From assembly GCF_004010195.1 (NCBI RefSeq), contig NC_057755.1, positions 9,527,306 through 9,591,305 on the forward strand: a stretch of 64,000 nucleotides of DNA. Direction: 5' to 3'. Each line of letters starts with the position of its first letter. Position 1 is the first letter of the stretch. The position numbers and the translations under genes were made by a program. The stretch is from Chiloscyllium plagiosum (Eukaryota). Under the pieces are notes generated by a model. That model was not told the DNA's origin. It ran no database searches and saw nothing but the letters and a program-made list of their open reading frames with translations. Positions 3,119 to 61,794 of this stretch are shown here, piece by piece.

Positions 3119-4035
3119 CAAACATGATGACGATTGTCATTCTTACACGAAGAAACTGTGGCCTATCTAAATGTATCTCTGTCTACATGCTTGCAATGGC
3201 AACCGCAGACCTTCTGGTCATAATCAATAACGTAATAGTTTATAGCATTTTAATTTATCACTTTCCACTGTCTTTTCTGTCACATACACATAATTGTAAG
3301 TTTGTTTTTTACTTGGGTGCTGTTTCACTCAATTCATCAGTCTGGTTCACAGTCGCCTTCACTTTGGATCGTTTTATCATCATTTGCTCTCCAAAATTTA
3401 AAACAATGTATTGCACTGTGCGAATTTCAGTCACCGTTTTAACGGTGATTTGTGTCCTCATGTGGATCAAGGATTTCCCTGTTTTCTTTGCATATGAACC
3501 TGAGCGCATCATTAACAATGTTCCATGGAACTGCCAATCAAGTGTAGCATTTTTTTCCTCAATTACAGGAGTAGTATACGTATGGTTTTTTAGCATTTGT
3601 ATAGTTTGGTTTCCATTCATTACAATTGTATTGTTGAATTCATTAACAATCAGACATATACTAGTGACCAGTAAAGGCCGCAGAGGGCTTCGGAGTCACG
3701 CAATTGACAATCACTGTGATCCAGAGATGAAGAATCGAATGAAGTCTATTGTTTTACTCTTTAGTATCTCAGGAAGTTTCATTCTTTTGTGGCTGACAAC
3801 TGTGATAAACCTTGTAATGACCAGAATTTCAAATCCTAATTATTATCAAGGAGACCTTGGAAATCCAGCATATATCGCCGTCGAAACTGGAGCCATGCTC
3901 AGGTATTTGAGTTGCTGTTCCAACACGTGTATTTACGCAGTGACTCAGAGGAAATTCAGGGAAGATCTTCTCGCTATTATCAAATCACCCTGTGTATTCA
4001 TTGCAAAATGGTTAAAAATGAAGAGGGACAATTAA
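3119..4035 (+). CDS. GPR139/GPR142-like class A GPCR, locus 1, coding exon 2 (partial CDS; exon 1 not found in window)
   Basis: Open frame with TM1(part)-TM7 motifs: ANMMTIVILTRRNCGLS, YMLAMATADLL, FTLDRF, DPEMKNRMKSIVLLF, SNTCIYAVTQRKFR. Polypyrimidine tract and AG at 3117-3118 fall at the same phase-1 position (G|CA AAC) as in the paralogues. Confidence 0.9.
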
Positions 4036-4759
4036 AGACTGCCTGTAGGCAGATTAATATTCGCAGTCACTCAGATTATTTTGAACACACGTTTCCTAGT
4101 TTGCATCATGTTTTCGAGGAATTCAAAAACATCTGTACATTTCCTATAAGCGTTGTTTTTTTTTCTGGACACACCAAAACAAATGGTACAAAGGAACAGG
4201 AATGGTCCCACACTCTGATTTAAGAGAAACGATTGTTCATGTTTAAACCTCATGGTGAATGTGCACGTTAGCTGTCACAAACCTGACAGATAAAAAGTGG
4301 ACATCTGACAGTACAACAGAGAGTAGTCATCCAAGTCGTAGTTTCTTCAGGAGAGCTGCGGGTTTTCAGAGTTTTCTTTCTGTAATATTATCATTCACAC
4401 ACGTAAAGACAATCTATTTTCTGACCTGCACAAATGCACATGCACCTTCGAACATCGAAAAAGTGAGCATGATTTGAACATTCGTTCGTCCAGCCTGCCC
4501 TACTTTTCACTAAGATCATTACTACCCTGCTTGTGTTTCAAATTTATCGTTGTCTTCCCCTCCCTTTCCACCGAATAACTATTGACTGGTATTGCTAATA
4601 ATATGCCCACCCTGATCTGAGAAATAGTGAATGACTTTGCATCCACAATCTTCAAACAGCAACATCCAAAGTCGAACAACAAACCGAGAGAAAAGAAAAC
4701 AGCCTACTCCATGTTCTACAAATGATTTGGAGGAGCTGGTGTTTGATTAGGTTGTAGAA

Positions 4760-5172
4760 AATTAAAATCACACGACACTAGATCATAATTCCAACACGTT
4801 TATTTGGAAGCACTAGCTTTCGAAGCGCTGTTTCTTCATCAGATTGTAGTGAAAAAGGACCAGAAGACACAGAATTTAAAGAAAAATGTTCCAGTCTCAT
4901 GCAGCCGAATTGCTATATTGAACAAACTTAGATTGTTGTCTTTCATCTTTGCAAATCGAAACCACCGAACACATTCTAATAGGTAAAAGACGGAACAATC
5001 TAAGTTTGTTCATTATATCATCTCAGTTCCATGACACTGTAAGCCTTTCCTCTAAATTCTGCGTTAAGACATTGCTTCATAAACATCTGTTGGAGAAGTA
5101 GCACTTCGAAAGCTAGTGCTTCCAAATAAACCTGTGGGATTATAACCTGGTGTTGGGTGATTCTTAACTGTG
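4760..5172. mobile_element. Penelope-like terminal repeats in inverted orientation (fold-back, arms about 190 bp)
   Basis: tatttggaagcactagctttcgaag (4801) versus cttcgaaagctagtgcttccaaata (5104); aacaaacttagattgtt versus aacaatctaagtttgtt. Confidence 0.7.
4811..4845 (-). ncRNA. Minimal hammerhead ribozyme-like motif in a Penelope terminal repeat
   Basis: Minus strand: CUGAUGA-a-gaa acagcgc uuc-GAAA-GC-UA with a palindromic AGCU helix III; stems partly decayed. Confidence 0.5.
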
Positions 5173-5499
5173 TTTTACAAAGGTGAACCTTAATTTGCGA
5201 GCAAAGGCGAATATTTCTGGACTGATCTACAAGAGAAATCGCACATAAAACAAAAACAAATGAACCGAATAAAGGCATTTAAATCATCGAGTCTGCTTCG
5301 TCATTCAATTAAATCATCGCTGATCTGGTAATTTTAGACTCCACCTTGCATTCAAGACTATTTATTATTTTACAGATAATAAATCTGTCGATGTCATCCT
5401 TGATTATACTTAATGAACTAGGCCCAGCAACATTCTTTGATAAAGTATTCTATGGAAACATTACCAATAAAAATGAAATTGTTGCATACCTCTGTCATA

Positions 5500-6815
5500 A
5501 TATAGAGAGACACAGCAGGGAAATATCCTTCAGTCGAACTTATCCATGCTGATCAGATATCCGAAAATAATCCAGTCAATTTTGCCATTATTTGGTCATA
5601 TCCCTCTGAACCATTCTTATCCTCGTCCCAATATCTTTTCAGTATTGTAATTGCAGCAGCCTTCACCAATCTGTCTGGCAACTCATTCGGTACAAGCACC
5701 ACTCCCTGCGTGAAAAGAAAAATCCCCCCTACTTCCTTATTATTTATTTCCCATCTAAGCTTAAACATATGTCATCCAGTCTTGGACTCGCCCACCCTGA
5801 GCAAAGATCTAGACCTTTCGCCATCTCTGTGTCACTCATGACATTACAAACCTCAAAAAATGACCCCATCACTTGCGACTCACAAGGAAAAATAGCCTCA
5901 GTCATAGAGTCATAGAGATGTACAGCATGGAAACAGACCCTTCGGTCCAACCCGTCCATGCCGACCAGATATCCTAACCCAATCTCGTAAATCAGCTTGT
6001 CCTTATAGCTCAAACCCACCAAACATAGCAACAAATTTGTAAATCATTTGGGAGTCCCTCAACATTCGTAACATCCTTCCTGCAGCAGTAATACCAATAT
6101 TGCATGAAGGATTTCAGTAGCAGCCGACCAATGCCTTGGGCAGCTGCAACATCACCTCCACAGTCCTATATTCAATGCACTGATCAATGAAGGCAAACAT
6201 AACAAATGCTTCACACTATCTTATCTACATGTGTGAGTCCATTTAAAGGATCTGCGAACTTGCACTCCAACTTCTCTTTATTCTGCAAAACGCCCCAGGT
6301 TCTGCTCTGTAATGTCTTTCAAAAATGCAGCATATTCCATTTACATCCTAAACTCTGTCTGCCACTCCTCAGCCCATCTGATGAATAGCCAGTTGTCCTC
6401 TGATGTAAACGTCTTCACGGTCCACTACAACTCCAATTTTGATGTAATCTACAAACTCGGTAACTATGCCTCTTATGTTAATCCTCTGAATCATTTACAT
6501 AAATTATTAAAAACAGTGCAGCTCCGATTCTCGAGGCACACCGTTCGTCACTGGCCTCCAATCTGAGAGGGAAACCCCAACACCACTCCCTCTCTTATAC
6601 CGTTGATTCAATTTTATATCTAAATGGCGAGCTCTCCCAATCTTGTTAACCAGACAACCATGAAGAACATTGCCGAATGTATTACGAGGTCCATATACAA
6701 CATGTTCACTGTTCTGCCATCATGAATCCTCTTTGTTACTTCCTCAATAAAACTCAATGAAGTTAGTCAGACATGCTTTCCCAAGTACAGATCCATGATG
6801 GCTATCCTCCATCAG
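5500..6815 (-). mobile_element. CR1 LINE 3' portion, degenerate, with a nested short CR1 3' end at about 5901..5985
   Basis: Minus-strand remnants FTQGVVLVPNELPDRLVKAAAITILKRYWD and upstream RT pieces; catagag tail repeats. Confidence 0.75.
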
Positions 6816-9150: not shown

Positions 9151-9394
9151 CGGAGAAAGTGAGGACTGCAGATGCTGGGGATCAGAGCTTAAAAATGTGT
9201 TGCTGGAAAAGCGCAGCAGGTCCGGCAGCATCAAAGGAGAAGGAGAATCCACGTTTCGAGCATAAGCCCTTATTCAGGAATTTAGAGAAGAGGGCTGAAG
9301 ATTTGCCCTGAAGAAGGGATTATGCCCGAAACGTCGATTCTCCTCTGATGCTGCCTGACCTGCTGCACTTTTCCAGCAACACATTTTTAATCTC
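9151..9394. mobile_element. Penelope-like inverted terminal-repeat pair inserted in CR1
   Basis: Arms about 9185..9278 and 9307..9394 (ttaaaaatgtgttgctggaaaag / cttttccagcaacacatttttaa); flanking direct repeat cccacaaaggtcag / cccagaaaggtag. Confidence 0.75.
9304..9339 (+). ncRNA. Minimal hammerhead ribozyme-like motif
   Basis: CUGAAGA-a-GGG auuaug CCC-GAAA-CG-UC: core intact, palindromic ACGU helix III, helix I weak. Confidence 0.55.
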
Positions 9395-10980
9395 CCAGAA
9401 AGGTAGCACGGCGATCTTTGTGTAGAGTTATAGAAGATGGTGAAATACTAAACGAATATTTATCATCAGTATTTACTGTGGAAAAATAAGTGGGAAGATA
9501 TAGAATGTTGGGAAATAGATGGTGGCATCTTGAAAAATGTCCATAGTACAGACGAGGAAGTGATGGATATCACGAAACGCAATAGAGTGGATAAATCTTC
9601 AGGACCTGATGAGGTGTAACTGAGAACTCCAAGGGAATTTAGGGAAGAGGTTGGTGGGCCTCTTGTTGAGATATTTGCATCATCCATTATCACAGTTGAG
9701 GTGTCTGAAGACTGTAGGTTGACTAAAGTTGTGCCACTCATTAAGAAAGGTGGAAACCGTAAAGAACTAACAAAGAGGATTGATGAGGGCAGAGCGGGTG
9801 ACGTGATCAGTTTGGAATTCAGCAATATGTTTGACAATGTTCCTCATGGGAGACTGATTACCAAAGTTAGATTTCATGGAATACAGTGAGAACTAGCCAT
9901 TTGTATATAAAACTGGCTCAAAGAACAGGGGTTGTTGGTAAAGGTTGTTTTTCAGATTGGAGGCCTGTGACCAGTGGAGTGCCTTAAGGATCGGTGCTGG
10001 TATACTATTTTTCTCATTTATGTAAATGATTTGGATGTGAGCGTAAGAGGTATAGTTAGTACGTTTTGCAGATGACACCAAAATTAGAGGTATGATGGAT
10101 TTTTAGAAGGTTACCTCGGATTATAACTTGATTAGATGGACCAATGGGCTGAGAAGTGGCAGATGGAGTTTAATATAGACGAATGTGAGGTGCTGCATTT
10201 GGGGAAAACAAATCTTAGCACGACTAATACACTTAATGGGAAGGTCCAAGGCAGTGTTGCTGAACAAAGAGACCTTGGAGTGCACGTTCATAGCTCCTGG
10301 AAAGTAAACTCGGAGATAGATAGGATAGTGAAGAAGGCGTTTTGTATGCTTCCCTTTATTGGTCAGAGTATTGAGTACAGACGTTTTGAGGTTATGCTGC
10401 GACTCTGTAGCACATTTGTTCGACCACTTTTGGAATATTGCGTGCAATTCTGGTCTCCTTCAGATCGGAAGGATGCTGTGAAACTGGAAAGGGTTGGAAC
10501 AAATACAAAAGAATGTTGCCAGCGTTGGAAGATTTGAACTATAGGGAGAGGTTGAAGAGGTTAGGGCTGTTTTCCCTGAACATTCGAAGCTGAGGGGTAT
10601 CCTTATACAGATTTGTAAAATTATATGAGGCATAGATAGGGTAAACAGACAAAGTCTTTTCCCTGGTGTAAGGGAGTTCAGAAGAAAAGGGAATGGGTTT
10701 AGTTTGAGAAGAAAAAGATACAAAATACACCTGAGGGACAACATTTTCAGGCAGAGTGTGGTGCGTGTGTGGAGTGGGCTCGTGCATGGGTATATAAATA
10801 GGAAGGGTTTGGAGGAATATGGGGCGGGTGCTGGCAGGTAGGACTATCTGGTTTGGTTATCTGGTAGGCACGGACGAGTTGTACCAAAGGGTCAATTTCC
10901 GTGCTGTATATCTTTGTGACTCTATAACTCTATGTTCAGCAGATCTGAAAGGAATCCAACAAGATGACATAAAACAATGA

Positions 10981-11090
10981 CTTATTCCTGTTCCTCTGGG
11001 AGTGTACCAATCAATTTAGTTCTGTGATGTTATTCTGTTTATTCACTTTCGTGAAATCTGTATCTGTTGATCAGCTATGTCATCCCGATA
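10981..11090 (+). promoter_or_regulatory. Orphan distal promoter remnant of pseudogene locus 2
   Basis: gttctgtgatgttattc...gtgaaatctgtatctgtt...gtcatc matches the reverse complement of 24065..24170; similarity stops at about 11090. Confidence 0.55.
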
Positions 11091-12041
11091 TATCCATGTT
11101 GGTGTGAGAATGAAGGATTTAAAGGGAATAAGCTAGCAGTCACAGATAGGACACAGCTCAACCTGAAGGTTGTGGCCGAGGGTCTGAGGTCAGCTAAAGA
11201 AAATCAAGCAACAGATGCCATATTCTTAAGTTGTTGTAGTCACTGTTGAGTCCGAAACACTTGAAAATACCTTAGAAACAAATCGCATGTCTAAATAGCT
11301 AGTATAGACTTCTAAAAATGAAATGAAGTGTTGTTCTGCCAATTTGCAATGTGTTTGTATAAAGTGTCCTCCATTTAGTACGCAACTAGTGATGAGTGTC
11401 AATCGACCAGACCAGTAAGAAAATTCAGATCTTCCGATTCCTGTATACAATTCTTGAATGAAAATAGTGACCATCAGTCACCTCACCATCAATAGTATGA
11501 TCGTTTTGAAATCTTTGTTCATTCTTTTTCATCTTATTTTACTGTTATCGTTTGGTTATGATCTGTGGCTGAGAGCTGAAAGTTGGGCTGTGGAATATGA
11601 GTAGCATACTGTTTTTGAAAACTTAAAGTGAATAAACAAGGTGATGTTAGTTTTTGAGACCAGGACTGAAAGTTAATTGCACGATGTTTTTTGTTAAGAA
11701 TTGTCGAAAGACCATTCGACTCCAGATTCGCAGTCAGCATGAGCAGACTGCTGACTTTGAATGTTAACTGAGACATTGTGGTTCGGCTGTCAGTCTGACA
11801 AGGAGAGACCAGAGGTTGGAGTGTTGTTTGAACTATGTTTGTGTTAGAAAGCTTAAGAATGGGAATTTGATTGATCTCATCAATTAATTGAAAGCATGTA
11901 GAATGCAATATCAATTATAAGAATTACATGAATATTTTTCAGACCCCATGGGGAGTTATATGTTATGAAGACGTGGTTGCACTCTACTTAGAAGAGAATG
12001 GAATTGTACCCCAAAATACCCACCTCCAATTAACCCCCAAA

Positions 12042-12730: not shown

Positions 12731-13663
12731 AGAAACCAAGCAAGAGATACTCCTTTGTGTCTGTGATGCTATTGATCATGAAAGCAGCTTAAGAAAGCTG
12801 ACCAGTTGGATCTCCTTCATATGTCTTCCTTATGATTTACCACTTAACGCTCTCTGTTGATCTGTCTATATTTGTTTGAAGGCGGAAAATAAAGAGGATT
12901 GGGTTAAATCTACGGTACCATTGAAGAGTGAGTAAAGTAGCTGCAGTTACAAAGATCACCACTGGTTTATCTGGACAGCATACCATTCTAGTGTGCAGAA
13001 CAACCAGAACAAGGAAGACTCATGTTCATTGAGGTTGTCGTGTTAACTTTACTGAATTGCAGAACACACTGGATGAGCCAAATGGCTTATTTTGTGCTGC
13101 TATCTCTTATGGTCTAACTCTGGTGTTAAAATTTGGTCTTTTAAGATTACTGACTTTTTTTTCAGAAATTGTTTAGTTTCTTGATTGGGCTCTGAAACTG
13201 AAGCCTGATGTCAGGCATTCATAAAGTCTGGAACGAGTTGCTCCAAAAAGTTCATTTGAAACTGTTGCATTTATGTGAAAGGTCTTTCATTTTTCTTTTT
13301 AAAATGTGAATGCATGGTTAACGAGCTTTAGTCAATGTGCTTGCAAGTGCCTGTGTCATAAGACATGTAACCAATGAAGATGAGTACTGCTGTATTACAC
13401 TTTGTTCTACTTAATGGTTGAAAATGGTTGAAGATGCCTGAAAACACACAAATTTTGAGTTCTTCTGTACGGATTATTCAGTGCTTTGTTTTTCCGTGAA
13501 GCAATCTCGAAAGTCTTTTTGTATACAGGTGACCTATATAGTAAATTTTAAAATGTCTCAAAAATCACGTCTAAGTGGCAATGATTTTGACGTAATTTAT
13601 GACTTTTTTTTGCAAAATAGTTTTCTGGGTGATCTCATTTTTAATATTTTTCTATTTGACTAG

Positions 13664-14362
13664 TGAAAGTGATGATAATGATAATTCTTTCCCGGGAAAG
13701 TGAGGCCGATTCGATTGCACCTCTGTAAATATATTTGCCATGACTACTATAGTACTTTTGATCATGATCTTCGGAGTTATGTGCGTCACATTTATAAACG
13801 TCTTCTCAAAAACTTGATTTTGGTAGTTATTTGGTTACATGAGCTGTGTCATTCTGTTAAGGCATTGTTGTTCACTGAGATGCTCACATTTGATCGATAT
13901 GAAGCTACATGCTGAGAGAATCGAAAATTAAAACATTTGCAGAGTGAAGATAGTATCTGCAGTTGCAATGATCACCATTGCCCTGGCATACCAGCAGAGC
14001 ATGCCCTTTTGGTCTGCATAACAACCAGAACAAGTAATTCTCCTGTTCCATGAGATTGTTGCGCTAGCATGAATTTTTTTAAATTTCCCACTAGCAATAA
14101 CATTCCTTCAGCTCCAAGATTTTAGTTGTTTAAGCTTCATTTTCTTTATTTGCAGATTTGATTGCTTAATCATCAGATTGTAATTGCTAAAAGAACTCTT
14201 AAGGCCATCTAAATGCGCAAAAGTGAGCATGAAAGAAATCCAGTGATGGAGAGTCAAAGGAATTTCAATAATTTACTCCTCCCTCTATCGAAGCGTTTTA
14301 CCCTCCTGTGGCTGACAGCAGCCGTGAGCTTTTAACCGACAAGGATTGCAAACACTGCGAAT
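13664..14362 (+). pseudogene. GPR139-like GPCR pseudogene, locus 2 (degenerate, 3'-truncated exon 2)
   Basis: After acceptor tag| the remnants read VMIMIILSR, LTFDRYEATC*, NPVMESQR, LLWLTAAVSF*PTRIANTA, collinear with loci 3 and 4, with stops and frameshifts. Homology is lost at about 14362 next to an L2-like fragment. Confidence 0.8.
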
Positions 14363-14374
14363 TATTGTTTTCTC

Positions 14375-14660: not shown

Positions 14661-15999
14661 TTGTTAAGGGTTTTCTGAGGATTTCCTGATATAAAAGCGT
14701 CACCTCTGAGGCCACTTCATTCGTGCCTAGCAGTAATCCACAGATTTCAATGTCCTTGCAACTCTCTGTCTATTTGGAGCAACTGGACTTTTTCGTATTT
14801 GGCTTTCAACATCGACGTTTGATATTTGATATCTGAAAACATTCTTTTTAGAAATCAACTCATGGAGTGTAAGTGTCTTTGGCAGGCCAGCATTTATTGC
14901 CTGTCCATTATTGGAGGTGGGGATCTGCGTTCTTGAACAAATGCAGCGTGGAAAGAGAAGTGAGCAACTTACCTTTTGTGCCCAAAACACGAGAAGTACA
15001 AGGCATGTATTCTGACAAACAAAATGCGGGAGATCGCAGTGGGCCACGCTGCATCTGTGGAGCAAAAGAAGGCTCACATTTCCAGTCTAGTTGACTCTTC
15101 ATTAGAACTGAAGTGAAATGTGGAGGCCTTGCTGTGCTAGTGAATAAAGGACTTTGATAAATTGATCTGATGCTTCAGTTAGTTCTGGACTGTCGAGGAC
15201 AGTTTTGCAATCGGTTATTCAGGCATTGAGACCACCTACAACAGAATCTGTTAGGTACAGAAATCTTCCATTATTATAGTATATATTTTGTCTTGTCTAC
15301 ATATTCTGGCATTCGAATTCCAATCGTGTCAGCACATTATGATATAATAAACAGAGGTCTACAGCCCGAGGCACATATCTAATTTCACTCAATCCTGCAG
15401 AAAATTAGTTATCCCCTACCATTGTTCCTTCTCATACAATGTGCTCCCTTCCTCATCTGCATCATTTCAGTTTCTCTTCTGCCTCTTCCATCTCCTACGA
15501 ATTTCTTGCTTTAAGCTGATCAGGGTCTTTCTGTGAGGTATCTGATGTACCCAGCTTTCTGATGTACGAGGATCTTCTGTACAGTTATGTTCTTGTAGTT
15601 TCATTTTGATCATAGTGTTGTGGGTAGCCCATGAAATAGCAGTAAGAGATCATTTGTGAAGAACGAAAACTCAAGCCAAAAATATAAATTTATTGCACTG
15701 GTTGAAAATTTTGCCAATGAAGGACTTATGCCTGAAATGTCGATCCTACTGCTCCTCGGATGCTGTCTGACCGTCTGTACTTTTCCAGCATTACACTCTT
15801 CGACTCTGATCTACAGCAGCTGCAGGCCTCACTTTCTCTTAGGCTCTATAAGGATTTGGTTGAATTTCTCATGTCATGTCATACGCATCTGATAATTGGA
15901 AAACTGCTCTCAGTGATAAACCCAACATCATTAATATTAGTTCGCACACTTGAGGAAACATTTGCATGAATCTTAAGTAATTGTGTTGAATATCACAAA

Positions 16000-17560
16000 G
16001 AAATCATGGTAACCAGTATTTGTCGATCATAATGGATGTGACTACTACATTTCTAGAGGTAAATCTGTTATGCAGCGCGAGGCTAAAAAAATGTGGAAGA
16101 GTTTCTCAATTGTGTTTACTAAAGGCATGCCTACCAATATAGAACAATTAGATGGAGAATTAAGTTCTACATCAAAGAAGTTAAGGATAGCTTGGGAATA
16201 AAATAATTCAAATCGACTGTGTTCCATCCAGAATCTGCACTGGCATTAGAGTGGTGGAATCAAATTTAAAGACCATATTAACGATGCAGAGGATTTCATA
16301 AAGAATCTTTGTTTTTTGCACCTAATGATTGAACATAATTCAGTCCATTGGAATCGGTATACGAGCAACAGATGAGAAGACTCAGAAATTAATTATGGAG
16401 ATTTGGTAAGGCAGAATTCAGAAACAATATATTATAAATATGTTTCAAATTTACAGGAAGGTTAGAAAGGGTGGAGGAATTGCATATACGGCATTTTAAA
16501 AAAGCACAGCATGTGATGAAACAGAATACAGGGTAGAGGTCGAAATTAACAGCTTTGCCTGTGGACATCACATGCTAGTGTTATTGCCTGTTGGAGGTAA
16601 ACCTTAAAGGCAAGGTTTGGTGGGCCTTTCAAGATCAAATGGAAAGTGAATGAGGTGAATTATCATATGGAAAGCAAGATAAAAAAGGAATAATCTCACA
16701 TTATTGATTGTACTCAAATAATATCATTAAAGGGAAGGAAAGCAAAAAAATGAATGTGTTCCTGGATACAACGCAGCGTGGAGAACCTAGTTCAGATGAT
16801 TCTGAACTGGACAGCGTCAAATTAATTTGAACAATGAAGATGTTCTCAAACATTACAATAGACCATTTCGTTACCTTCCAGAGGAAATTCTGAATGATTT
16901 GAAAGAGTTATTGCTGTCGCATTAGGATACATGTGAGAATCATCTGGCAAGTTTTGGAATGATTATGCGTGGCATAGATATACGCAATGCTGTTCCAATT
17001 AATCAATGCCTTTAGAGAGTTAGCATTCTAAAGTTGTCACTGCTTCAAAAAGGGATATAACCTATGATAAGAGACAATGAAACCAAAGACCGTTGCAGCG
17101 AATGCACTTCACTCATAGTACTTGTGTCATACCTAGATGGTAATCAACGATTCTGTGTAGACTATTGCACAGTTAATGCAGAGACAAAATCTGACTCATA
17201 TCTATTCCACATTGAGAAGATCGTGTTGAGAAGGTGGGAAAAAACATTTTTATTTTTATGTTGAACTTATTCTGAGGATATTGTCAGGTATATTGATCGG
17301 AAGAGTGAAGACATTTAGACTTTATTAACGCTGAGTGGATTGTACCACTTTAAAACAATGCCATTTGGGAGGTACGAAACATCCCCCGCATTTCAAACAC
17401 GAACCAATGAAACCATTTCAGAATTGCCCAATTGTGTGTTGTATATTGACAATCTGGTGACTTTAAGAGACATATTGCAGGAACATTTTGGAGCAGCTGT
17501 CAGAAATGTTTGCTCAACCTTGGAATGCGTGCTTGCTTGTAATGTTAAATGTAAACCCAA
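16000..17560 (+). mobile_element. Gypsy (Gmr1-like) LTR retrotransposon internal fragment: integrase remnant followed by RT
   Basis: RFCVDYCTVNAETKSDSY, YHFKTMPFG...PAFQ...LYIDNLV; collinear with 34640..36800. Confidence 0.8.
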
Positions 17561-17564
17561 AGAC

Positions 17565-18260
17565 CTATGGATGTTGAAAATCAGGAACAAAAAAGACATG
17601 GCTGGAAAAGCTAAGCAGGCCCTGCAGGATCAGTGGAGAAAAATCAGAAATAAAGTTGCGGATCGGGTGACCCTTCCACGGGGATGATGGTTGCTAGGAA
17701 AATATCAACAGAACAGAGGTAAGGAGAAAGATGTTTGGGGATACAGAAGAAGGAGAGAGAAGAACATTTGAAAATACAAACGAATGGATAACAACATTGC
17801 TGGAAGGTTGAATAGCTGTTCATGGAAACTCATAATGGCTGACAGTAGATAGCATCAAATGGCAGAGTATGTGATAAAAAGGCCTGGTGTGTGGGATAGG
17901 GTGCTGTGACACACGAGAGTTCTCACCCTAAAATTGTTGAATTCTAAATTGAGTCTGGAAAGCTGCAAGGTCCCAAACATAAAACAAGTGGCTTTTTTTT
18001 TCAGTTTGTGCTGAGCTTCACTGCAGCATTCCTGATGAATGACATCTTATCCTCGTATTCTACCTGACCAGCCGTGCTTTTCTATCTTTACACTTTTCGA
18101 CTTTTAACTCCCTTGGAGCACTGTAGCAATCCTGATAGAAAGATATTCGCTGGGGCTTAGACTGGTGTCAAAATGGAAGGCAACTGGAAGCTCAGAGCCA
18201 TTTTCCTGACAGAACGGAGATGTTCTGCGAAGTGTAACTCAGCCAACGCTTGTTTTCCCC
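17565..18260 (-). mobile_element. Penelope-like element 3' fragment
   Basis: Terminal repeat (gctggaaaagctaagcagg, cggatcgggtgacccttc) followed by a decayed GIY-YIG C-terminus comparable to 61190..61400. Confidence 0.55.
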
Positions 18261-18838: not shown

Positions 18839-19752
18839 TTACTTTTCCATTCGACTGGCAAACAACAGAATAAATGACCAAGGGGATGTCAACGCCTTCT
18901 TCAGTTCTTCCCTGAATTTTCTTTGTATGACTGTATAAATACACATGTTAGTGCATGAACTCAAATACATGAGCATGTAGCCAGTTTCAGTGGCAATGTA
19001 GGCAGGAGCTGTGTAATCACCTCTAAAATGTGCAGTGTTTGTTATCCTCGTCGATAAAAAGCTCACTGCTGCTGTCAAAAACAGAAGAATAAAACTTCCG
19101 GATACAGTGAAGAGTAAAACAATGGACTTCCTTCGATTTTGCATTTCTGGGTCACTTTGGTTCTCGCTATTGCACCCTCGGACTGCTCTGCGAGACCGAT
19201 TGGCGACTAGAATGCGTCTGATTGTCAAACAATTAAATGTGAATAGCAAAGAAAATGGAAGCCAAGGGACTAAAATACTTTGTAACCAGGAGAATGCTGT
19301 ACCCAACGGCGAAGTAAAGAAGTTCAACTTAGTGCGACAACCCCACTGTAATTGATCGATTACTTGTTCAGGTTCGTATGCAAAGCAAAACGGGATGTTC
19401 TCTAGGCAAACCAGGGCAGTGGTGATCATTATAACTGCAGCTGCTGTCCTCACTTTACAATACTTTGTTTTCAGCTTCTCACAACAGATAGCTATATATC
19501 GATCAAATGTGAACAAGACTGTGAACCACACTGACATGTACAGGGTGACTAAGCTAATATAATTAAGTATCTTACAAACGACAGTGTAGGAAAAGAACGA
19601 ATGTGTAAAGTGATAACTCAAAATTCGAACAACAGTTACATTGAAGATCATGACCAGAAAAGCTGCTGTTGCCATGGCCACCATGTAGGCAGAGGTGCAA
19701 CTGGAAAGGCCGCAGTTTCTCCTGGAGAGAATTATCATTGTCAACATGTTTG
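18839..19752 (-). CDS. GPR139/GPR142-like GPCR, locus 3, coding exon 2
   Basis: Intact frame ANMLTMIILSRRNCGLS...TFDRYIAICC...DPEMQNRRKSIVLLF...TNMCIY...stop; acceptor tcttacag|CAAAC. Joins in frame with exon 23806..23875 to give 327 aa. Confidence 0.92.
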
Positions 19753-23385: not shown

Positions 23386-23395
23386 ATGCTTCATT

Positions 23396-23686
23396 GGGCG
23401 GCACGGTGGCACAGTGTTTAGCACTGCTGCCTCACAGCGCCAGAGACCCGGGTTCAATTCCCGCCTCAGGCGACTGACTGTGTGGAGTTTCCACGTTCTC
23501 CCCGTGTCTGCGTGGGTTTCCTCCCGGTGCTCCGGTTTCCTCCCTCAGTCCAAAGACGTGCAGGCAAGGGGAATTGGCCTTGCTAAATTACCCGTAGCGT
23601 TAGGTAAGGGGTAAATGTACGGGTATGGGTGGGTTGCGCTTCGTCGGGTCAGTTGGACTTGTTGGGCCGAAGGGCCTGTTTCCACT
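23396..23686 (+). mobile_element. HE1-type tRNA-derived SINE
   Basis: gggcggcacggtggcacagtgtttagcactgctgcctcacagcgccagagacccgggttcaattccc, central V domain and a CR1-like tail (gggccgaagggcctgttt). Confidence 0.9.
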
Positions 23687-23805: not shown

Positions 23806-23875
23806 CCGGAATGCCAAAGGCTGCTAGAATTGTGTAGTAAGTTATCTTTATCTGTACAATTATTGGCTGCACCAT
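23806..23875 (-). CDS. GPR139/GPR142-like GPCR, locus 3, coding exon 1 (70 nt)
   Basis: Reverse complement reads ATG...CCG G|GTAAGT, encoding MVQPIIVQIKITYYTILAAFGIP plus G, which completes the Ala codon with exon 2. Too short for the ORF track. Confidence 0.9.
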
Positions 23876-24170
23876 TTTTGGAAGAATGTCAGAAATATAT
23901 CCAGATTGATCGCTTCACTTGCAGTGCATATGAGCACAGTCAGTAGTCCGCTTTTATAGAGCAATATGTCCCTCGTTGAGGACAATATAACTGTGATGCA
24001 ACACTATCAGACTAATCGTCTCTGAAGAGATTTTTGCTGCTCCACTTTACTCATGCGTCCATGTGGAGATGACGCAGCGCATAACAGATACATCTTTCAC
24101 AAAATGAACAATTGGAATGACATCACAGAACGAAGCTGATTGTCACACCCCCAAATGAACAGAAATATGT
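23876..24170 (-). promoter_or_regulatory. Putative promoter/5'UTR of locus 3 with TATA box (TATAAAA at 23952..23958)
   Basis: TATA box about 80 nt upstream of the ATG; block is collinear with 48624..48900, 61795..62090 and (inverted) 10981..11090. Confidence 0.65.
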
Positions 24171-25226
24171 TATCGTACTCTGTCATTTTCTTCAGTTCTT
24201 CTTAACAAAACATCATTTGTCTCGTTCATTTAGACAGTAGCATAGAAAGTTCTGATTTGATACCGAGCATTAGAGTCATTGATCATTGATTGTGGTTACC
24301 ATCCTTTGATAATACTGGACGGTGCATAGCATACATTTGTTGGTATAGACTCGTGGCTACTTTTCCGAGAGAGCTGTGGGAGTGGTGTCCTTGCGTGTAC
24401 TGAAGGCTGAGATAGATAGATTCTTCATCAGGAGGGGAACCATGGGCTCTGAGGAAAGGATACAAACGTCGATGTGAGGAGTTGACCAATCATCCACGAT
24501 CCCTTTGAATGGCGGAATAGACTTATCGTTGTTCCTATTTCTTATGGTCTTCTGAAACGTGTATTCCTGAACTTCTGTCACAATAAAGTCAAGAAACAAA
24601 AAGACTACTCAATAAAATGGCAAGCAAGATTAAAAAGATTAACTCAGAATAATACTTGGCTTGCAAAAGACAGAAATGCTACATTGTTTGCTTGCTTGAA
24701 CATTTTCCAGAGAGAAAACGTCAGTGGAAAATAAAACAACTTCTCTCAATCCACTAATATTTTCAAGAGTAATGAAATGATCAAGCTCAACTGGAAGCTT
24801 GTCAATTGGATACAACTAAACATTTCACGAAAAACACAGCAACGATACAATTATATCCACAATGATGTTAATGTAAATTAGATTTCACGAATATGCTGGC
24901 AACATTTGATGTATTTCCTTCGTTTATATTGCACAACTGCTGAAATTATATTTCTGCCAATATCGATAGATAAACGTGTTCAACTCAATTTTGAGAAGGA
25001 AGGTGATTTCTTGACCAAAATTATTAATTGTGTTGAAGGTGCAATCGATTTAATTGAAAGAGCTAACTATGCAAACGTCGGATGTCTTAATATCTAGACT
25101 GAACTCAGCAAGTTATCCTTTCGTTGGCTCAAAACGGCATCAGAAAATGACGAATCGTTCAACTGCTCACAACATCTCTGACGGTCAGAAGTGAAAGAAT
25201 GAACAAGAAGAATTGATTCAAGGCAA

Positions 25227-45354: not shown

Positions 45355-46265
45355 CTACTCCTTTCGATTTACTAATATCAGAGTACAAGACCAACGAGAT
45401 GTCAACACTTTCTTCAGCTCTTGCCTGAATTTCCGTTGTGTTGTTGCATAAATACACACATTTGTACACGAACTCAAATGCAGGAGCATGTAACCTGTTT
45501 GAGTGGCAATATAAGCAGGAGCTGTATGATCACCTCGATAATGTGCAGTGCTTGTTATCTTTGAAGATAAAAAGCTCACTGCTGATGTCACCCACAGAAG
45601 GATAAAGCTGCCCGATATAGTGAACAGCAAAATTATGGACTTCCTTCTACTCTTCATCTCTGGGTCTCTTTGAGTCTCAATATTGCATCCTCGGATTGCC
45701 CTGCGAGCTCTATTGGCAACTAAAATACGTCGGACGGTCAAGCAATTGCACATAAATATGAAACAAAATGGAAGACAAACAACAAAAATACTTTGCAACC
45801 ACGAGAATGCTGTACCTGCAGGAGAAGTGAAGAATTTCAACTTGGTGCGACAACCCCATTGCAGTTGATCAATTAGTTGTTCCGCTTCATATGCAAACAA
45901 ATACGGTATATTTTCTAGGCAAACCAGGGCAATGGTGACCATTATAACTGCAGTTGCTGTACTCAGTCTGCAGTACTTTGTTTTCAGTTTCTCACAACAT
46001 ATCGCGACATACCTATCAAATGTGAAAAAGACTGTGAACCACACTGTCAGAAACACGTTGACTGAGCTCATGTAGATAATAAATGTACAAACGCCAGTAT
46101 GGGACAAGAAGGAATGTTTCAAGTGAAAACTGAATATTTGATGCACAGTTACGTTAAAGGTCAGAACCAGAAAATCTGCAGTTGCCATGGCCACCATGTA
46201 TGCAGAAGTACAAGCAGATAGGCAGCAGTTTCCCCTCGAGAGAATTACAATTGTCACCAGGTTTG
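45355..46265 (-). CDS. GPR139/GPR142-like GPCR, locus 4, coding exon 2
   Basis: Intact frame ANLVTIVILSRGNCCLS...AMATADFL...TFDRYVAICC...DPEMKSRRKSIILLF...TNVCIY...stop; acceptor tttacag|CAAAC. Joins with exon 48554..48623 to give 326 aa. Confidence 0.92.
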
Positions 46266-46447: not shown

Positions 46448-46722
46448 GGCGGCATGGCGGCTGAGTGGTTAGCACTGCTATCTCACAGCAGCAGGTCCCA
46501 GGTTCGATTCGAGCCTTGGGCGACTGTCTGTGTGGAGTTTGCACATTCTCCACATGTCTGCGTGGGTTTCATCCAGGTGCTCCGGTTTCCTCCCACAATC
46601 ACAAAGTTGTGAAGGTCAGGTAAATTGGCCATGTGTCAGGTACATTAGTCAGAGCGAAATAGGTCTGGGTCGGTTAATCTTCCCAGGGTCAGTGTGGAGT
46701 GGTTGTAGGGAATCTAATCTAA
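46448..46722 (+). mobile_element. HE1-type SINE in the locus 4 intron
   Basis: tggcggctgagtggttagcactgc...ggttcgattc, V domain, (aatct)n tail. Confidence 0.85.
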
Positions 46723-48553: not shown

Positions 48554-48623
48554 CAGGAATGCCAAAGGCTGCCAGCATCGGGTAGTAAATTATCTTTACT
48601 TGTCGAATCACAGGCTGAAACAT
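48554..48623 (-). CDS. GPR139/GPR142-like GPCR, locus 4, coding exon 1 (70 nt)
   Basis: Reverse complement encodes MFQPVIRQVKIIYYPMLAAFGIP plus G|GTAAGT; same length and phase as locus 3 exon 1. Confidence 0.9.
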
Positions 48624-48900
48624 TTTCAGAAGAATGTCTGAAATCTATCCAGCCTGATGGCTTCATTGCCTGAGCATACCGAATGCTCCCTACTTATAGA
48701 ACGACGTGTGCCTGGTTGAGCATATAATAAACAGATTGGAATATTACCATAATTACTTACGTTCACTGAAGAGATTATCACTGCTCCATTTCACCGCTAC
48801 CTTGTCCATATGGAGATGCCACAGCTGAGTAGCAGATACACATGCCATTAAAATGAACAAATGGAATTACATCACAGAACAAAATTAACTGGCACACTAC
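48624..48900 (-). promoter_or_regulatory. Putative promoter/5'UTR of locus 4 (TATAAG at 48693..48698)
   Basis: Shares gaagaatgtc, ttataga, gtccatRtggagatg, cagatac and acatcacagaac (plus-strand reading) with the locus 3 upstream region. Confidence 0.6.
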
Positions 48901-48984
48901 CAGAGGCACAGGGGGAAGAAATCATTGTTCTCTGCCATTACGTTGGCTGCATTTCTGATTGCAATTCAACAGAAACATAAAAGA

Positions 48985-49849: not shown

Positions 49850-50995
49850 GTTATAGAGTCATAGAGATGTACAGCGCAGAAACAGACCTTTCAGTCCAGC
49901 TCATCCATGTCGACCAGAATTCCAAAACTAATCTAATTCCATTTGCCAGCAGTTAGCCCATTTAACTCTAAACTCTTTAGATTCACACAACCATTCCACA
50001 TGCCTTTTAAATATTGCAATTGTACCAGGCTCCACCACTCCCTCTGGCAGCTAATTCCATACAAGCACCACACTCTGCGTGAAAAATCTGCTCCTTAGGT
50101 CCCTTTTGTGTCTTTCCCTCTCACCTGAAGCCTATGCCCGCTAGTTCCAGACTCCGGCATCCCAGGAAAAAGATTCTGTCCATTTATCCTATCCACGCTC
50201 TTCATGGTTTTATAACCCTCTATGAGGTCACCCCTCAGACTTCGACAGTCCAGGGAAAACAGCCCCAGCCTATTCAGCCTCTCCCTACAGCTGAAATCCT
50301 CCAACCATGACGACATCCTGTTAAATCTTTCCTGAACACTTCCATGTTTCACAACATCCTTCTGATCAAAAGGAGACCAGAATTGCAAGAAATATTCCAA
50401 AAATGTTCTAACTAATGCCAGGTAGAGCCGCAATTTGACCTCCTAACTCCTATACTCAATGATCTTACCATTAAAAGAAAGCCTACTAAACGCCATCTTC
50501 ACTATCCTGCGACTCTTCTTTCAAGGAGCTATGAACCTGTGCTCCAAGGTTTCTTTTTTAACCAGGACTTTACCTTTAAGTATGTAAGTCCAGCTAAGAT
50601 TTGCAGTCTCAAAATGCAGCAGCTCAGATAAATCTAATTTTAACTCACCTGCCACATCTCTGTCCATTTGTCATTCTGATCACGATCCCGTTGCATTCAG
50701 AGGTAACCTTCTTCGCCGCCAATGTACCTCAAACATTGGTGCCATCTGCAAACTTACTAACCGTACCTCTTGCGTTCATATCTAAATAATTTAAGTAAAT
50801 GACGAAAAGTAGTGGAGTCAGACCGATCCTCATAGAACTCCACTGGTCACAGGCCTCTAGTCTGAAAAACACCTTCAACACCACCCACTGTCTTCTACCT
50901 TCGAGCCAGTCTGTATCCAAATGGCTCTTCTCCCTGTTTTCCTTGAGATATAAACTTGCTAATCACTCTCCCATGAGGAACCTTGTCGAACGAAT
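49850..50995 (-). mobile_element. CR1 LINE RT and 3' fragment
   Basis: VSKFADGT, LVRTFLEYFLQFWSP, LNRLGLFSL; catagag tail. Confidence 0.88.
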
Positions 50996-58046: not shown

Positions 58047-58912
58047 TCACTGTTCCATTCGATTAAACAATGTCAGAATACTCGACAATAAACATGTCAA
58101 CACTTTCTTCAGCTCTTGCTGGAATTAACTTTGAACGGCTGCATAAATGCACATATTGGAACACGAATTTAAGTAAATGAGCATGTAACCAGTTTCAGTG
58201 GCAATGCAGGCTGAACCTGCATAATCACTTTGATAATGTGCGGTGTTTATAATCCTTGTTGCTAAAACGTTAAGATTTGCTGTCAGACACTGAAGAATAA
58301 AACTACCCGATATCGCCAAGTGTAAAATAATGGATTTTATACGATTCTCCACCTCTGGACCTTTTTGATTCTCACATTTGCATCCTTTGATGGCCCAGCG
58401 CTCCCTATTTGCGACTACAATACATCAGAATGTTCAGTAATGAAGCAGGTGTATCAAAGAAAATGAAAGACAAACAGTTAAGGTACTTTGCAATGAGGAG
58501 AATGCTGCACCTGCTGGAAAATTGAAGGATTCCAAATTGAGGCGACAACTTCACAGTACATGATCATTACTTGTTCAGGTTCATATGCAAACCAATGTTC
58601 ACAAGGTAAACCAAGGCAGTAACGCTCAAGAAAGTTTTCAGCCTCTCACAACATACAACTAAATATCGATCAAACGTGAACAACGCAGTGAAACACACTG
58701 CCATGGACAGGTTTGCAGCGTGCATGTCGATAACAAAGTGTCAAAATCCAGTGTAGGAGAAGAAGGAATTTATAAAATGTAAACTGAACATGTAATACAT
58801 ATCGAAGATCATCACGAGAAGAAGAGTTTATGCCATGGCGACAATGTAGACAGATGTAGAATCGGAGACGGAGCACTTTCCCCGGAGAGAATTATTATTG
58901 TCATCAGGTTGG
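58047..58912 (-). pseudogene. GPR139-like GPCR pseudogene, locus 5, exon 2
   Basis: Acceptor tttgcag|CCAAC; ANLMTIIILS then a frameshift, VYIVAMA* stop, TFDRY, ENRIKSIILHLAISGSFIL...SNMCIYAAVQS*, ending NRMEQ*. Confidence 0.88.
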
Positions 58913-59879
58913 CTGCAAATCAAATGAAGAAAAGATACAAAGCACACGACTATTGAGAGAACGAAAGTCTAAAACATTTGTGACAGAATACCCAATGATG
59001 TTACTTAAATGCACTTGCGTTTTGAACATTTCATGATGCCATACATCGCATGTGACACTCAGAATACAGAGACTTAATTCAGCATCATCTAGTTAAGTGC
59101 TTTCAACTATTAAACAGATGGAAGTATACTGTGGCAGTTGTGCTTAATATAGGTTTCGTGTGATATGAAATGCACACTGCCTGGCAATTCAAATTCGCCT
59201 CCCTATTGTTATATCCAAAGCACAGTAAATTTAAGTGATTCACTCGACACCAAACTTGACCACAATCTGTCTTCAGTAAACATTTTAATAACTAGTAATC
59301 ATTTGGGAGTAACTAACATCAGAATTTTTTTCAGTCAAAATTAAGACCAAACAAGTAATTGCCTGGGCAGCAACTTTAGCAGAGCAAAACTACACATAAA
59401 AGTAAGATAATAAAAATGCCGTCTAACATTTAAATCTAATCCTATTTAGTTCTGGCCCCAACTTTCACACAAATATAACCAAGCAAATGGACTTATTTAA
59501 TGGATAAATCAAAATTTGAAGAATGAGATAAAACCAGCCAGTTTACATCCACGTTCTCCACATTCCAATACATCACATCCACAGAGGATTGTGCCTTCAT
59601 CAGTTTCAGATAACATTGATGAATGCAGACAGTTTACAAAAGACTTCAATGAATTACAATATATTTCTGACAACTGAGATTCTCTTTTCCTGAAAGAAGG
59701 GCCGAATAGCCTCGTCCTCCTTCGATTTTCTATGTTTCTACCAGATTTATATCTTTTCACTGAGCACAACGACAGAAGGTGTCCCTGATGTCCCTTTCTG
59801 CTCTGTAACCGTTCAGTGATTGAAGCTACCGACTCAGCGTCACACATTCTTTGTTCCAACAAGATATCCTCAACTTTAC

Positions 59880-60782
59880 TAGCCCCACTTGGCTACGATT
59901 GCTCTATGTCCTTCTAACCCTGTCCTATTCATTTACAGGTCGAAATGTTTTTTTAATGTTAGAATTGCACCCTCCACCCAAATTTCCTCTGCCCCTCAGG
60001 TGTCTTTTAAAACTTTCCCCTCTCAATTTAAACCTTTGCCCTCTAGATTTTTATAAATCCGCACCCTTGCAAAAAGAACTTTGCTATTCACATTATCGAA
60101 GGCCTTGTAATATCGTAAACCTCTATAAGGTGACCCCTCAGATTCCTGTCCTCCACAGAAGAAAGGCTAAGCCTACCGAGCCCCTCTTTTTCACTCAAAC
60201 CCTGCAGGCCCAGCAACATCTTTGATGTTTTCAGTACCCTTCTAATTTAAATTCATCTTTCCGAAACCAGAGTGAGCCGAATTGTGCACAGTATTTCAAA
60301 AGTGTCATCAAAAGGGTCTCGTACTGTGGCAACTTGGCGCCCTAACGTCTGTACTCAAAGCTCAGACCACAGAAGGGAAACGTGGAAAACGCCTTTTTTC
60401 ATCATCCTGTTCTTGTGCAAAGTCTCCTTCAAGGAACTGTGTTGAGGCATCCCTGGAATCCTCTGACCAACATATCTCTCCGCAGCTTAACCATTAACCA
60501 TCTAAGTCCTGTGCTGGTTTGCCTCAAGGTCTTGTATTTATGTTAATTAAATTCAATTTGCAACTTCTCATCACACTGGTCAAGTTGTTCAAGAATTCCT
60601 TGGACTTCAATAACATTCTTCATGCACCCCACAGTACCAATGTTGGTGACATCCGCAAATTTACTCATTATAGCTCCTATATTCTCATCACCATTGTTGA
60701 AATAAATGACAAATAACAATGGACCAGAACTGATCCTTGCACCACACTACCAGTCACAAGCCTCCATTTGAAATAGTTGTCT
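59880..60782 (-). mobile_element. CR1 LINE RT and 3' fragment in the locus 5 intron
   Basis: WRLVTGSVVQGSVLV, FADVT, decayed C-terminus. Confidence 0.8.
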
Positions 60783-60810
60783 CTCCCGAAACTTTCATTT
60801 ACTGACATAC

Positions 60811-61794
60811 CAGGAATTCCAAAGACTTCGAGAAAGTGAGGACTGCAGATGCTGGAGATCAGAGTCGAGAGTGGGATGCTGGAAAAGCCCAGCAGGTGAG
60901 GCAGCATCCGAGGGGCAAGAAAATCAAAGTATCGGGTAGTAGCCCTTCATCAGGAATGAAGCTTGTGAGCCGAGGGGGTGAAAGAGATAAATGAGAGGAG
61001 AATGCGTCTGAGGGGAAGGTGGCTAGGAAGTCGATAGGTGGACAGAGGTGCAGGTAATGATGATAGGTAGGAGGAGAGTGGAGTGGATAACTGGGAAGGA
61101 AGATGGACAGGTATGACAGGTCATTTGGGACAGTGCCGGGTGGTAAGGTTGGAACTGGGATACTTCGTGTGGGGGGGAAATGAAGAAAGTGTTGAAATCC
61201 ACCTTGGTGCTATGTAGTTGGAGGGTCAAAAGGCGGAAGATGAGATGTCCTTCCTCGAGACGTTGTGTGATAAGGCTGTGGAGATGGAAGAGGCCGACTA
61301 CCTGCACGTCCTTAGCAGAGTGGGAGGGGGAGTTGAAGTTTTTGGCCACAGGACAGTGGGTCGCTTGGTGTGTGTGTCCTGGAGATGTTCTCTGAAGCAC
61401 TCTGCAAGTAGGCGTCCTGTCTCCCAAATGTAGAGGTGACCACATCGGATACAACGGATTCAGTATTATGTGTAAATGCACGGAAAACTGATGGATTTGC
61501 ACGGATACTTTGGTTCCTTGGATAGAGGTGTGGGCACAGGTTTTGTAATTCCTGCGGTGGTAAAGGAAGGTGCCAGGAGGGGAGGGTATGTTGGTGACTG
61601 GGCTTGGAACTTATAAGAGAGTAGTGGAGGGAATAGTCTTTATGGAAAGCTGATAGGGGAAGGAAGGGAAAATAATCTATGTTTATGGGGTCCGATTGTA
61701 GGTGGCGGAACTGACGGAGCATGATCCGATACATAATGGCTTTGAAAATGGGGTAAGAAATTACCTTTATCTGCACAGTTATTGATTGTGCTAT
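60811..61794 (-). pseudogene. Locus 5 exon 1, split by a Penelope-like insertion (5' part 61735..61794, 3' part 60811..60829)
   Basis: 5' part reads IAQSITVQIKVISYPIFKAI (ATA where paralogues have ATG); 3' part reads EVFGIP G|GTATGT with the donor intact. Confidence 0.85.
60830..61734 (-). mobile_element. Penelope-like element (5'-truncated, GIY-YIG region and terminal repeat) inserted in GPCR exon 1
   Basis: RIMLRQFRHLQSDP...LSAFHKDYSL, PVAKNFNSPSHS...RLEEGHLIFRL; terminus gagaaagtgaggactgcagatgctgg as at 9153. Confidence 0.85.

What the first reader, a model, noticed from the sequence alone, without database searches (positions are those of the whole stretch)
3119..61794. Tandem birth-and-death cluster of five GPR139-like GPCRs: candidate expanded sensory receptor family
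Seen: five paralogous loci in 60 kb (three open frames, two pseudogenes), in both orientations, with the same intron position and diverged TM3-TM5/ECL2 sequences. Established: mammalian GPR139 and GPR142 are single-copy and respond to aromatic amino acids (L-Trp, L-Phe); clustering with frequent pseudogenisation is typical of chemoreceptor and immune receptor families. Inference: this is part of a lineage-specific repertoire, possibly for amino-acid or peptide sensing. I cannot tell from the window whether it has been functionally described.
Basis: partly seen in the sequence, partly recalled or inferred. Interest (0 to 1): 0.8.

Follow-up and report, generated by a model that had tools for sequence, protein, structure and literature searches.

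The report
Giant orphan receptor family in sharks
Five related receptor genes (two whole, one open but lacking its first exon in this window, two broken) lie in a row in what is likely carpet-shark DNA; they belong to a very large receptor family of sharks, rays and chimaeras that databases call GPR139 although it is only a distant relative, and their fast-changing predicted binding pockets make them likely a set of chemical sensors.

Summary
Confirmed: five paralogous class A GPCR loci. B and D are intact two-exon genes; A has an open exon 2 but no exon 1 in the window; E and P are pseudogenes. They are not GPR139 orthologues: about 22% identical, keeping 0-1 of 5 pocket residues, while catshark has a true GPR139 81% identical to mouse. 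They belong to a chondrichthyan family (1345 clusters at 90% identity; all 120 listed are elasmobranch; one chimaera member found). Its sister group is an apparently single-copy amphibian/sturgeon receptor (99/95) that keeps 4 of 5 GPR139 pocket residues. Intact paralogues are under purifying selection (dN/dS 0.25-0.30). Predicted pocket sites change about twice as fast as the rest, yet are the most conserved sites in the single-copy relatives: an odorant-receptor-like pattern. E's closest whale-shark match is an open frame, consistent with birth and death. Expression and ligands are untested, so 'chemosensory' is inferred (about 0.45); an immune role is the main rival. Ten literature searches found no description of the expansion. 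This scan already noted the family on other DNA (a ray genome, another piece of this genome).

The parts
3119..4035 (+). Gene A, exon 2 (TM1 second half to stop), open; exon 1 not found in the window (probably upstream of base 1, or lost)
10956..11115 (+). Remnant of the conserved upstream module, belonging to pseudogene P
   Evidence: 73-75% identical to the B and D upstream modules, aligned
12920..13040 (+). Stray 120-bp duplicate of the TM3-TM4 coding part
   Evidence: 75% to 13937-14059, 72% to B
13664..14365 (+). Pseudogene P, exon 2 remnant: 9 stops in B's frame, many frameshifts, truncated before TM7; closer to B (67%) than to A (52%), so an inverted copy from the B/D/E group
18839..19752 (-). 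Gene B exon 2; with exon 1 gives an intact 327-aa receptor (D2.50 replaced by A, W6.48 by F)
23806..23875 (-). Gene B exon 1 (23 codons + 1 base, GT donor; intron 4053 bp)
23876..24200 (-). Gene B upstream module with a TATA-like box about 80 bp before the ATG; about 68-69% identical to those of D and E (likely promoter)
45355..46265 (-). Gene D exon 2; with exon 1 gives an intact 326-aa receptor
48554..48623 (-). Gene D exon 1 (intron 2288 bp)
48624..48950 (-). Gene D upstream module
58047..58912 (-). Pseudogene E exon 2: six internal stops in B's frame, deletions of 1, 6, 6, 27, 7 and 1 bp; best stored match is an open whale-shark protein (P0018, 348 vs next 274 bits)
60811..60834 (-). Pseudogene E, 3' part of exon 1 with GT donor
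60835..61744 (-). About 910-bp decayed insert splitting E's exon 1; Penelope-like by a recalled GIY-YIG-type motif and 3' end, no Pfam hit for the two frames tested
61745..61794 (-). Pseudogene E, 5' part of exon 1, start codon read as ATA
61795..62121 (-). Pseudogene E upstream module

Best explanation
[quoted passage not shown] Shown: a shared two-exon layout with a co-duplicated upstream module; a 7TM fold with N1.50, DRY/F, the TM3-ECL2 cysteine pair, P5.50, F6.44 and N7.49..Y7.53 kept; purifying selection on the scaffold; faster change at predicted pocket positions; gene death by point lesions and a transposon insert. Inferred: the family arose from one ancestral jawed-vertebrate receptor, still apparently single-copy in amphibians and sturgeon, whose pocket resembles GPR139's aromatic-amino-acid site; duplicates in chondrichthyans re-tuned that pocket while keeping the intracellular, G-protein-facing half. 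Untested: tissue, ligand, G protein.
For: Size: 1345 of 2534 candidates pass E<=1e-3; the 120 listed all carry elasmobranch names, 15 species by my count, with 36 clusters from Heterodontus and 27 from Pristiophorus alone; 133 representatives at 50% identity pass 1e-30; 19 of 19 high-scoring representatives looked up are chondrichthyan, 18 elasmobranch and 1 Callorhinchus. For scale, catshark has 34 V2R genes, its largest olfactory family (PMC10116579, passages). Sister group: family + amphibian/sturgeon clade 99/95 (SH-aLRT 99); that clade gives one cluster in each of 20 amphibian species and one sturgeon among 25 hits. Selection: dN/dS B-D 0.26 (0.17-0.36), B-A 0.25, D-A 0.30, against 0.36-0.73 for pairs with E or P. 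Pocket: over 29 generic pocket positions dN is 0.29 vs 0.14 elsewhere for B-D (permutation p=0.009; p=0.047 and 0.020 for the A pairs). Column entropy in 70 deep family members is 2.56 bits at the pocket, 2.17 at other extracellular-half sites (p=0.011) and 1.16 in the intracellular half; in the two single-copy groups the pocket is the more conserved part (0.72 vs 1.21; 0.15 vs 0.58). Fold: AlphaFold2 pLDDT 79, seven helices, ECL2 hairpin.
Against: No expression or ligand evidence was obtained. Pocket dN/dS stays below 1 (0.37-0.49; 0.51-0.69 for extracellular TM3), so relaxed constraint explains it as well as positive selection; dS is near saturation for the A pairs. The pocket excess is not significant among the 120 closest relatives (p=0.13), and entropies are not corrected for relatedness. 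Pocket positions are generic class A positions chosen from recalled knowledge, not read from a liganded model. Immune-type repertoires show the same genomic signature. The catshark sensory-organ paper found no GPCR among the 50 most abundant specific genes of its brain plus olfactory library (PMC11979771 section 11), though that list also lacks the V2Rs. Monophyly of the family against its sister is weak (85/75).
Confidence: 0.45

Rival explanations
1. An innate-immune or barrier repertoire: the paralogues sit on leukocytes, mast-like cells or skin nerve endings and detect microbial or damage peptides, working like FPR or MRGPR receptors.
For: Same clustering, death rate and pocket variation as under the best explanation. 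Cartilaginous fishes lack MAS1 and its relatives (PMC8455134, passage), leaving that role open. The peptide-receptor-type cysteine pair and ECL2 hairpin are kept; CCR1 is the second family in the profile search (52 bits).
Against: The nearest kin are GPR139-, FMRFamide- and MIP-receptor-like neural receptors, not chemoattractant receptors. The names GPR139/GP139/'coupled receptor 139' do not occur in 4 supplementary files of a shark immune single-cell paper; weak, because its gene labels were not checked.
Confidence: 0.25
2. Internal sensors for endogenous peptides or nutrients in gut, brain or reproductive tissue, sub-functionalised after duplication.
For: The wider group (GPR139, FMRFamide, MIP and proctolin receptors) is neuropeptide- or amino-acid-sensing (PMC12208981 section 8); the sister clade keeps a GPR139-like pocket.
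Against: Receptors of fixed endogenous ligands keep their pocket, as the two single-copy groups do; these paralogues vary most there. Dozens of copies per species exceed any known endogenous ligand set (my knowledge).
Confidence: 0.15
3. Largely neutral copy-number drift in a repeat-rich genome: duplicates are redundant and decay.
For: Two of five loci are dead; the window is full of LINE fragments; tandem clusters grow with genome size in batoids (bioRxiv 10.1101/2025.06.08.657570, passages); pocket dN/dS is below 1.
Against: dN/dS of 0.25-0.30 between intact copies; D has a one-to-one whale-shark partner; deep subfamilies below 50% identity persist across sharks, rays and a chimaera.
Confidence: 0.1
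4. They are extra copies of GPR139 itself and sense L-Trp and L-Phe.
For: Database names; GPR139 is the top solved-structure match of the profile and ties for first in Foldseek.
Against: 22% identity in the structural alignment; 0-1 of 5 pocket residues in the window proteins and none of 173 family sequences with all five; catshark has a true GPR139 81.3% identical to mouse (PMC13200729 supplement row); the same profile scores amphioxus (139) and centipede (107) receptors above human GPR139 (67).
Confidence: 0.05

Closest known systems
GPR139 (and GPR142)
   Same: Class A receptor; best solved-structure match of the family profile (67 bits); both lack P7.50; similar TM1 and TM3 motifs.
   Different: About 22% identity; family has C3.25 plus an ECL2 cysteine and an ECL2 about 12 residues longer, where the aligned human GPR139 has no TM3 cysteine; P6.50 mostly replaced by T; Trp/Phe pocket not kept; multi-copy, whereas catshark GPR139 is a separate gene 81% identical to mouse. 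GPR142 was not compared: no call returned its sequence.
Non-mammalian orphan clades beside GPR139/142 (GPR210A/B of Rinne et al. 2019, PMC6504862)
   Same: That paper reports three orphan subtypes near GPR139/142 in coelacanth, gar and fishes (passage). I find three such groups: one across sharks, fishes, coelacanth, amphibians, turtles and squamates, one with anchovy and caecilian, and the amphibian/sturgeon sister of the shark family.
   Different: The paper has no shark data ('shark' 0 occurrences) and describes low-copy genes. I could not map its Ensembl ids to my groups, so the identity is likely, not shown.
Vertebrate chemoreceptor repertoires (OR, TAAR, V1R/ORA, V2R/OlfC, T2R)
   Same: Tandem clusters, compact coding region, pseudogenes, variable pocket on a conserved scaffold.
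   Different: Different ancestry: only 7tm_1 matches in Pfam; nearest kin are GPR139/FMRFamide-type receptors. Sensory expression not shown.
MRGPR and FPR expansions (recalled)
   Same: Class A peptide-type receptors that expanded by birth and death and serve sensory or immune detection.
   Different: No sequence kinship seen; a functional analogy only.

Membership tests
Class A (rhodopsin-like) GPCR | 7tm_1 domain and seven-helix fold | tested here: met
   Pfam 66-76 bits; AlphaFold2 model pLDDT 79; Foldseek TM 0.63-0.73 to class A structures
Class A (rhodopsin-like) GPCR | Activation motifs N1.50, D2.50, DRY, C3.25-C45.50, P5.50, CWxP, NPxxY | tested here: met
   Mostly kept; P6.50 and P7.50 are replaced family-wide, and B has A2.50 and F6.48
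GPR139 orthologue | High sequence conservation across vertebrates | tested here: not met
   22% identity, 32 bits against 81.3% for catshark vs mouse GPR139
GPR139 orthologue | Trp/Phe pocket F109, H187, W241, R244, N271 (PMC5430874, passages) | tested here: not met
   A 1, B 0, D 1 of 5; of 173 family sequences 4/88/76/4/1 keep 0/1/2/3/4 and none keeps 5; positions mapped by me from the alignment
GPR139/GPR142/FMRFamide-receptor supergroup | Closest characterised relative is GPR139 | tested here: met
   Profile: GPR139 67 bits vs next 52; atlas neighbours are GPR139- and FMRFamide-receptor-named clusters. The single sequence ranks the ghrelin receptor higher.
GPR139/GPR142 clade proper | Groups with GPR139/142 in a tree | not testable with these tools
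   No call stored a true GPR139 or GPR142 sequence, so neither is in the trees
GPR139/GPR142 clade proper | Same intron position in TM1 (recalled for GPR139) | not tested
   Position shown for the five window loci only
GPR210A/B orphans (Rinne 2019) | Orthology to the named coelacanth genes | tested here: inconclusive
   Coelacanth P0211 found, but the paper's Ensembl ids could not be mapped
OR, V1R/ORA, V2R/OlfC, T2R families | Family-specific Pfam domain | tested here: not met
   Only PF00001 at E<=0.01
Chemosensory receptor repertoire (works like) | Large clustered family with birth and death | tested here: met
Chemosensory receptor repertoire (works like) | Pocket variable among paralogues, conserved among orthologues | tested here: met
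   not significant among the 120 closest relatives (p=0.13)
Chemosensory receptor repertoire (works like) | Positive selection (dN/dS above 1) at pocket sites | tested here: inconclusive
   0.37-0.49 on pooled pocket sites of three pairs; no site model run
Chemosensory receptor repertoire (works like) | Sparse expression in sensory cells | not testable with these tools
   No reads could be laid and the catshark tissue tables could not be read
Chemosensory receptor repertoire (works like) | Activation by environmental chemicals | not testable with these tools
   Needs a ligand assay

The most novel reading that the evidence does not exclude
Sharks, rays and chimaeras, held to have tiny smell-receptor repertoires, carry an overlooked further chemoreceptor family, larger than their V2R set, built by mass duplication of a GPR139-like aromatic-amino-acid sensor that stayed single-copy in amphibians and was lost in mammals.
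Probability: 0.35. Interest if true: 0.9.

Novelty: new variant of a known kind. Interest (0 to 1): 0.68.

Why it matters
Published work describes cartilaginous fishes as poor in GPCRs and olfactory receptors (PMC8455134, PMC10116579; passages), which sits oddly with their large olfactory organs. A family with dozens of diverged copies per species, hidden under the automatic name 'probable GPR139', is a concrete candidate for the missing receptors or for an unrecognised immune sensor set. One look at existing tissue RNA tables would decide between these. The single-copy amphibian sister with a GPR139-like pocket gives a direct way to test the ancestral ligand.

Tried and rejected
No own genome is held, so copy number in this genome was not counted. 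Sequencing-run search: four holders from one study, no RNA holder listed; no reads were laid, so expression is open. Supplements: the catshark sensory paper's file could not be read and may bear directly on expression; no hit for the family name in the catshark cartilage (8 files), shark immune single-cell (4 files) or whale-shark supplements (24 files, one GPR142 orthogroup row only); bioRxiv supplements and figure labels (for example Fig. 5A of the Squalomix preprint) were not visible and could name the family. Ten paper searches found no description of the expansion; subscription journals are largely missing from that library. A's exon 1 was sought three ways without result. Foldseek does not separate GPR139 from other peptide receptors. 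PMC6367278 gave nothing on the disulfide. The manta-ray genome preprint does not mention GPCRs. Rfam found nothing. A by-sequence look-up of earlier findings was blank. Rejected: true GPR139 copies; members of the four known olfactory families; an artefact of opposite-strand frames. Tree rows dropped: only sequences covering at least 255 of 328 profile positions were kept (plus two amphioxus-like rows), 11 further rows were thinned, and 46 of those 97 rows were used.
Full report
Observation. The window (about 40% GC, rich in LINE fragments) holds five paralogous 7TM loci arranged A+ P+ B- D- E-. B and D are whole two-exon genes: a 23-codon exon 1, a phase-1 intron in TM1 (4053 and 2288 bp) and a long exon 2, giving 327 and 326 aa without stops. 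A is an open exon 2 with a proper acceptor, but no exon 1 was found in bases 1-3118 by three methods. E has lost its ATG, has an insert of about 910 bp in exon 1, and six internal stops and six deletions in exon 2. P has nine stops in B's frame, many frameshifts, no exon 1 and no TM7. All five share the acceptor position. B, D and E share a 390-500 bp upstream module at 64-70% identity with a TATA-like box, and P keeps a piece of it, so the unit of duplication was the gene with its likely promoter. Exon-2 DNA identity is 80% for B-D, 72% to E, 64-67% to P and 52-61% to A.

Family. A search with B returned 1345 clusters at 90% identity (E<=1e-3, of 2534 candidates); the 120 listed all carry shark or ray names, mostly 'probable G-protein coupled receptor 139', 36 from Heterodontus, 27 from Pristiophorus and 26 from Heptranchias by my count. 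I did not see the other 1225 names. A profile of 59 members found 133 representatives at 50% identity below 1e-30; 19 of 19 high scorers that I looked up were chondrichthyan, among them one Callorhinchus protein, which falls inside the family in the quick tree. B and D lie in a clade with whale shark, zebra shark and bamboo shark proteins only (100/99), so the window is likely from a carpet shark. D pairs with whale-shark P0003 (100/95), and dead E best matches an open whale-shark protein: copies were born before that split and one died here.

Relation to GPR139. The family profile's best solved-structure match is human GPR139 (67 bits; CCR1 52), so the label points to the right neighbourhood. 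It is not orthology. B alone scores 32 bits on GPR139 and 45 on the ghrelin receptor; structural identity is 22%; catshark has a true GPR139 81.3% identical to mouse (one supplement row of PMC13200729). The same profile scores salamander 213, coelacanth 204, amphioxus 139, anchovy 134 and centipede 107 bits. These define three low-copy vertebrate groups. One (coelacanth P0211) spans sharks, fishes, amphibians, turtles and squamates, with no bird or mammal name among the 120 of 145 hits listed. Another gives one cluster in each of 20 amphibians and one sturgeon (21 of 25 hits) and is sister to the chondrichthyan family (99/95; family monophyly alone 85/75). Both searches are word-limited, so absences are soft. 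Rinne et al. (PMC6504862, passages) named three such orphan subtypes GPR210 without shark data; the match to my groups is likely but unmapped. True GPR139 and GPR142 are missing from my trees because no call stored them.

Pocket. Mutagenesis and modelling place Trp/Phe binding of GPR139 at F109, H187, W241, N271 and R244 (PMC5430874, passages). Mapped through the alignment, A, B and D keep 1, 0 and 1 of these, and none of 173 family sequences keeps all five, whereas 22 of 23 sister-group sequences keep four (K counted for R). The family also keeps a TM3-ECL2 cysteine pair (96-99%) and an ECL2 hairpin; the aligned human GPR139 lacks the TM3 cysteine and has a shorter loop. Across 70 deep members, 29 generic pocket positions are more variable than other extracellular-half positions (2.56 vs 2.17 bits, p=0.011) and far more than the intracellular half (1.16); in the single-copy groups the order is reversed (0.72 vs 1.21; 0.15 vs 0.58). 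Among the 120 closest relatives the excess is not significant (p=0.13). Between window genes dN/dS is 0.25-0.30 overall; pocket dN is about 1.6-2 times the rest (p=0.009-0.047) but pocket dN/dS stays at 0.37-0.49. So diversification of the pocket is shown, positive selection is not.

How it likely works. A conserved intracellular half with DRY/F and a basic TM6 start points to ordinary G-protein signalling (coupling untested). A pocket re-tuned from copy to copy, dozens of copies per species and frequent death point to a repertoire for many ligands that the genome does not itself fix. Given an ancestor with a GPR139-like pocket and neural relatives (PMC12208981 section 8), I favour external chemosensing of amino-acid derivatives or peptides (0.45) over an immune or barrier role (0.25), internal peptide sensing (0.15), drift (0.10) or true GPR139 function (0.05). 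No expression data were obtained, and that is the deciding gap.

Novelty. The proteins are in RefSeq under automatic names, but ten searches found no paper on the expansion. The whale-shark genome paper speaks of a paucity of GPCRs in cartilaginous fishes (PMC8455134, passages); catshark's largest olfactory family has 34 genes (PMC10116579, passages); the catshark sensory paper (passages and section 11) and the Squalomix tandem-gene preprint (passages) do not name the family in their text. Unread supplements, figure labels and subscription journals could. Two earlier AI notes of this scan report the same family in a ray genome and elsewhere in this genome; I had reached the family reading before seeing them, confirmed the chimaera member afterwards, and could not check the claim of over a thousand copies per genome. 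The kind (a birth-and-death receptor repertoire) is known; this instance, from an orphan lineage, appears undescribed.

Noticed in passing
window 18839-19752 (gene B); P0001, P0002, P0003, P0005: The nearly universal D2.50 is alanine in B and appears to be lost in several carpet-shark relatives too, and B also has F6.48; may alter sodium sensitivity or basal activity.
   Followed up: partly
alignment A1, ICL1/TM3 end/ICL2: Several intracellular cysteines are invariant or nearly so (C15, C20, C91, C100); lipid attachment or a metal site are possibilities.
   Followed up: no
P0205, P0393-P0412: An apparently single-copy amphibian/sturgeon orphan receptor keeps F3.33, W6.48, K6.51 and N7.39, a GPR139-like pocket; a good candidate for deorphanising with aromatic amino acids.
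   Followed up: partly
P0211, P0275-P0392: A second single-copy orphan, from sharks to squamates and turtles, is also named 'probable GPR139'; two of its models (P0278, P0376) are named as TMEM183A isoforms, suggesting it lies beside or overlaps TMEM183A.
   Followed up: no
window 60835-61744: Decayed Penelope-like insert (label from a recalled motif) that split exon 1 of E; its 3' end recurs at 9153-9281 and 15717-15838.
   Followed up: partly
window 25413-27768 and others (about 9829-10790, 39338-41957, 49854-50993, 60118-60725): LINE fragments with endonuclease and reverse-transcriptase matches; CR1-like is my recalled label.
   Followed up: partly
window 23396-23685 and 46448-46633: A SINE-like repeat, 81% identical, in the introns of both B and D, with another copy elsewhere in the window.
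   Followed up: no
window 17319-17684, 32746-33075, 36807-37079: Short frames that look like decayed LTR-retrotransposon pieces by recall; no Pfam match at E<=0.01.
   Followed up: no
P0183, P0212, P0135: Database models that fuse a family member to a sodium channel, an integrin or a RING protein; probably annotation errors.
   Followed up: no
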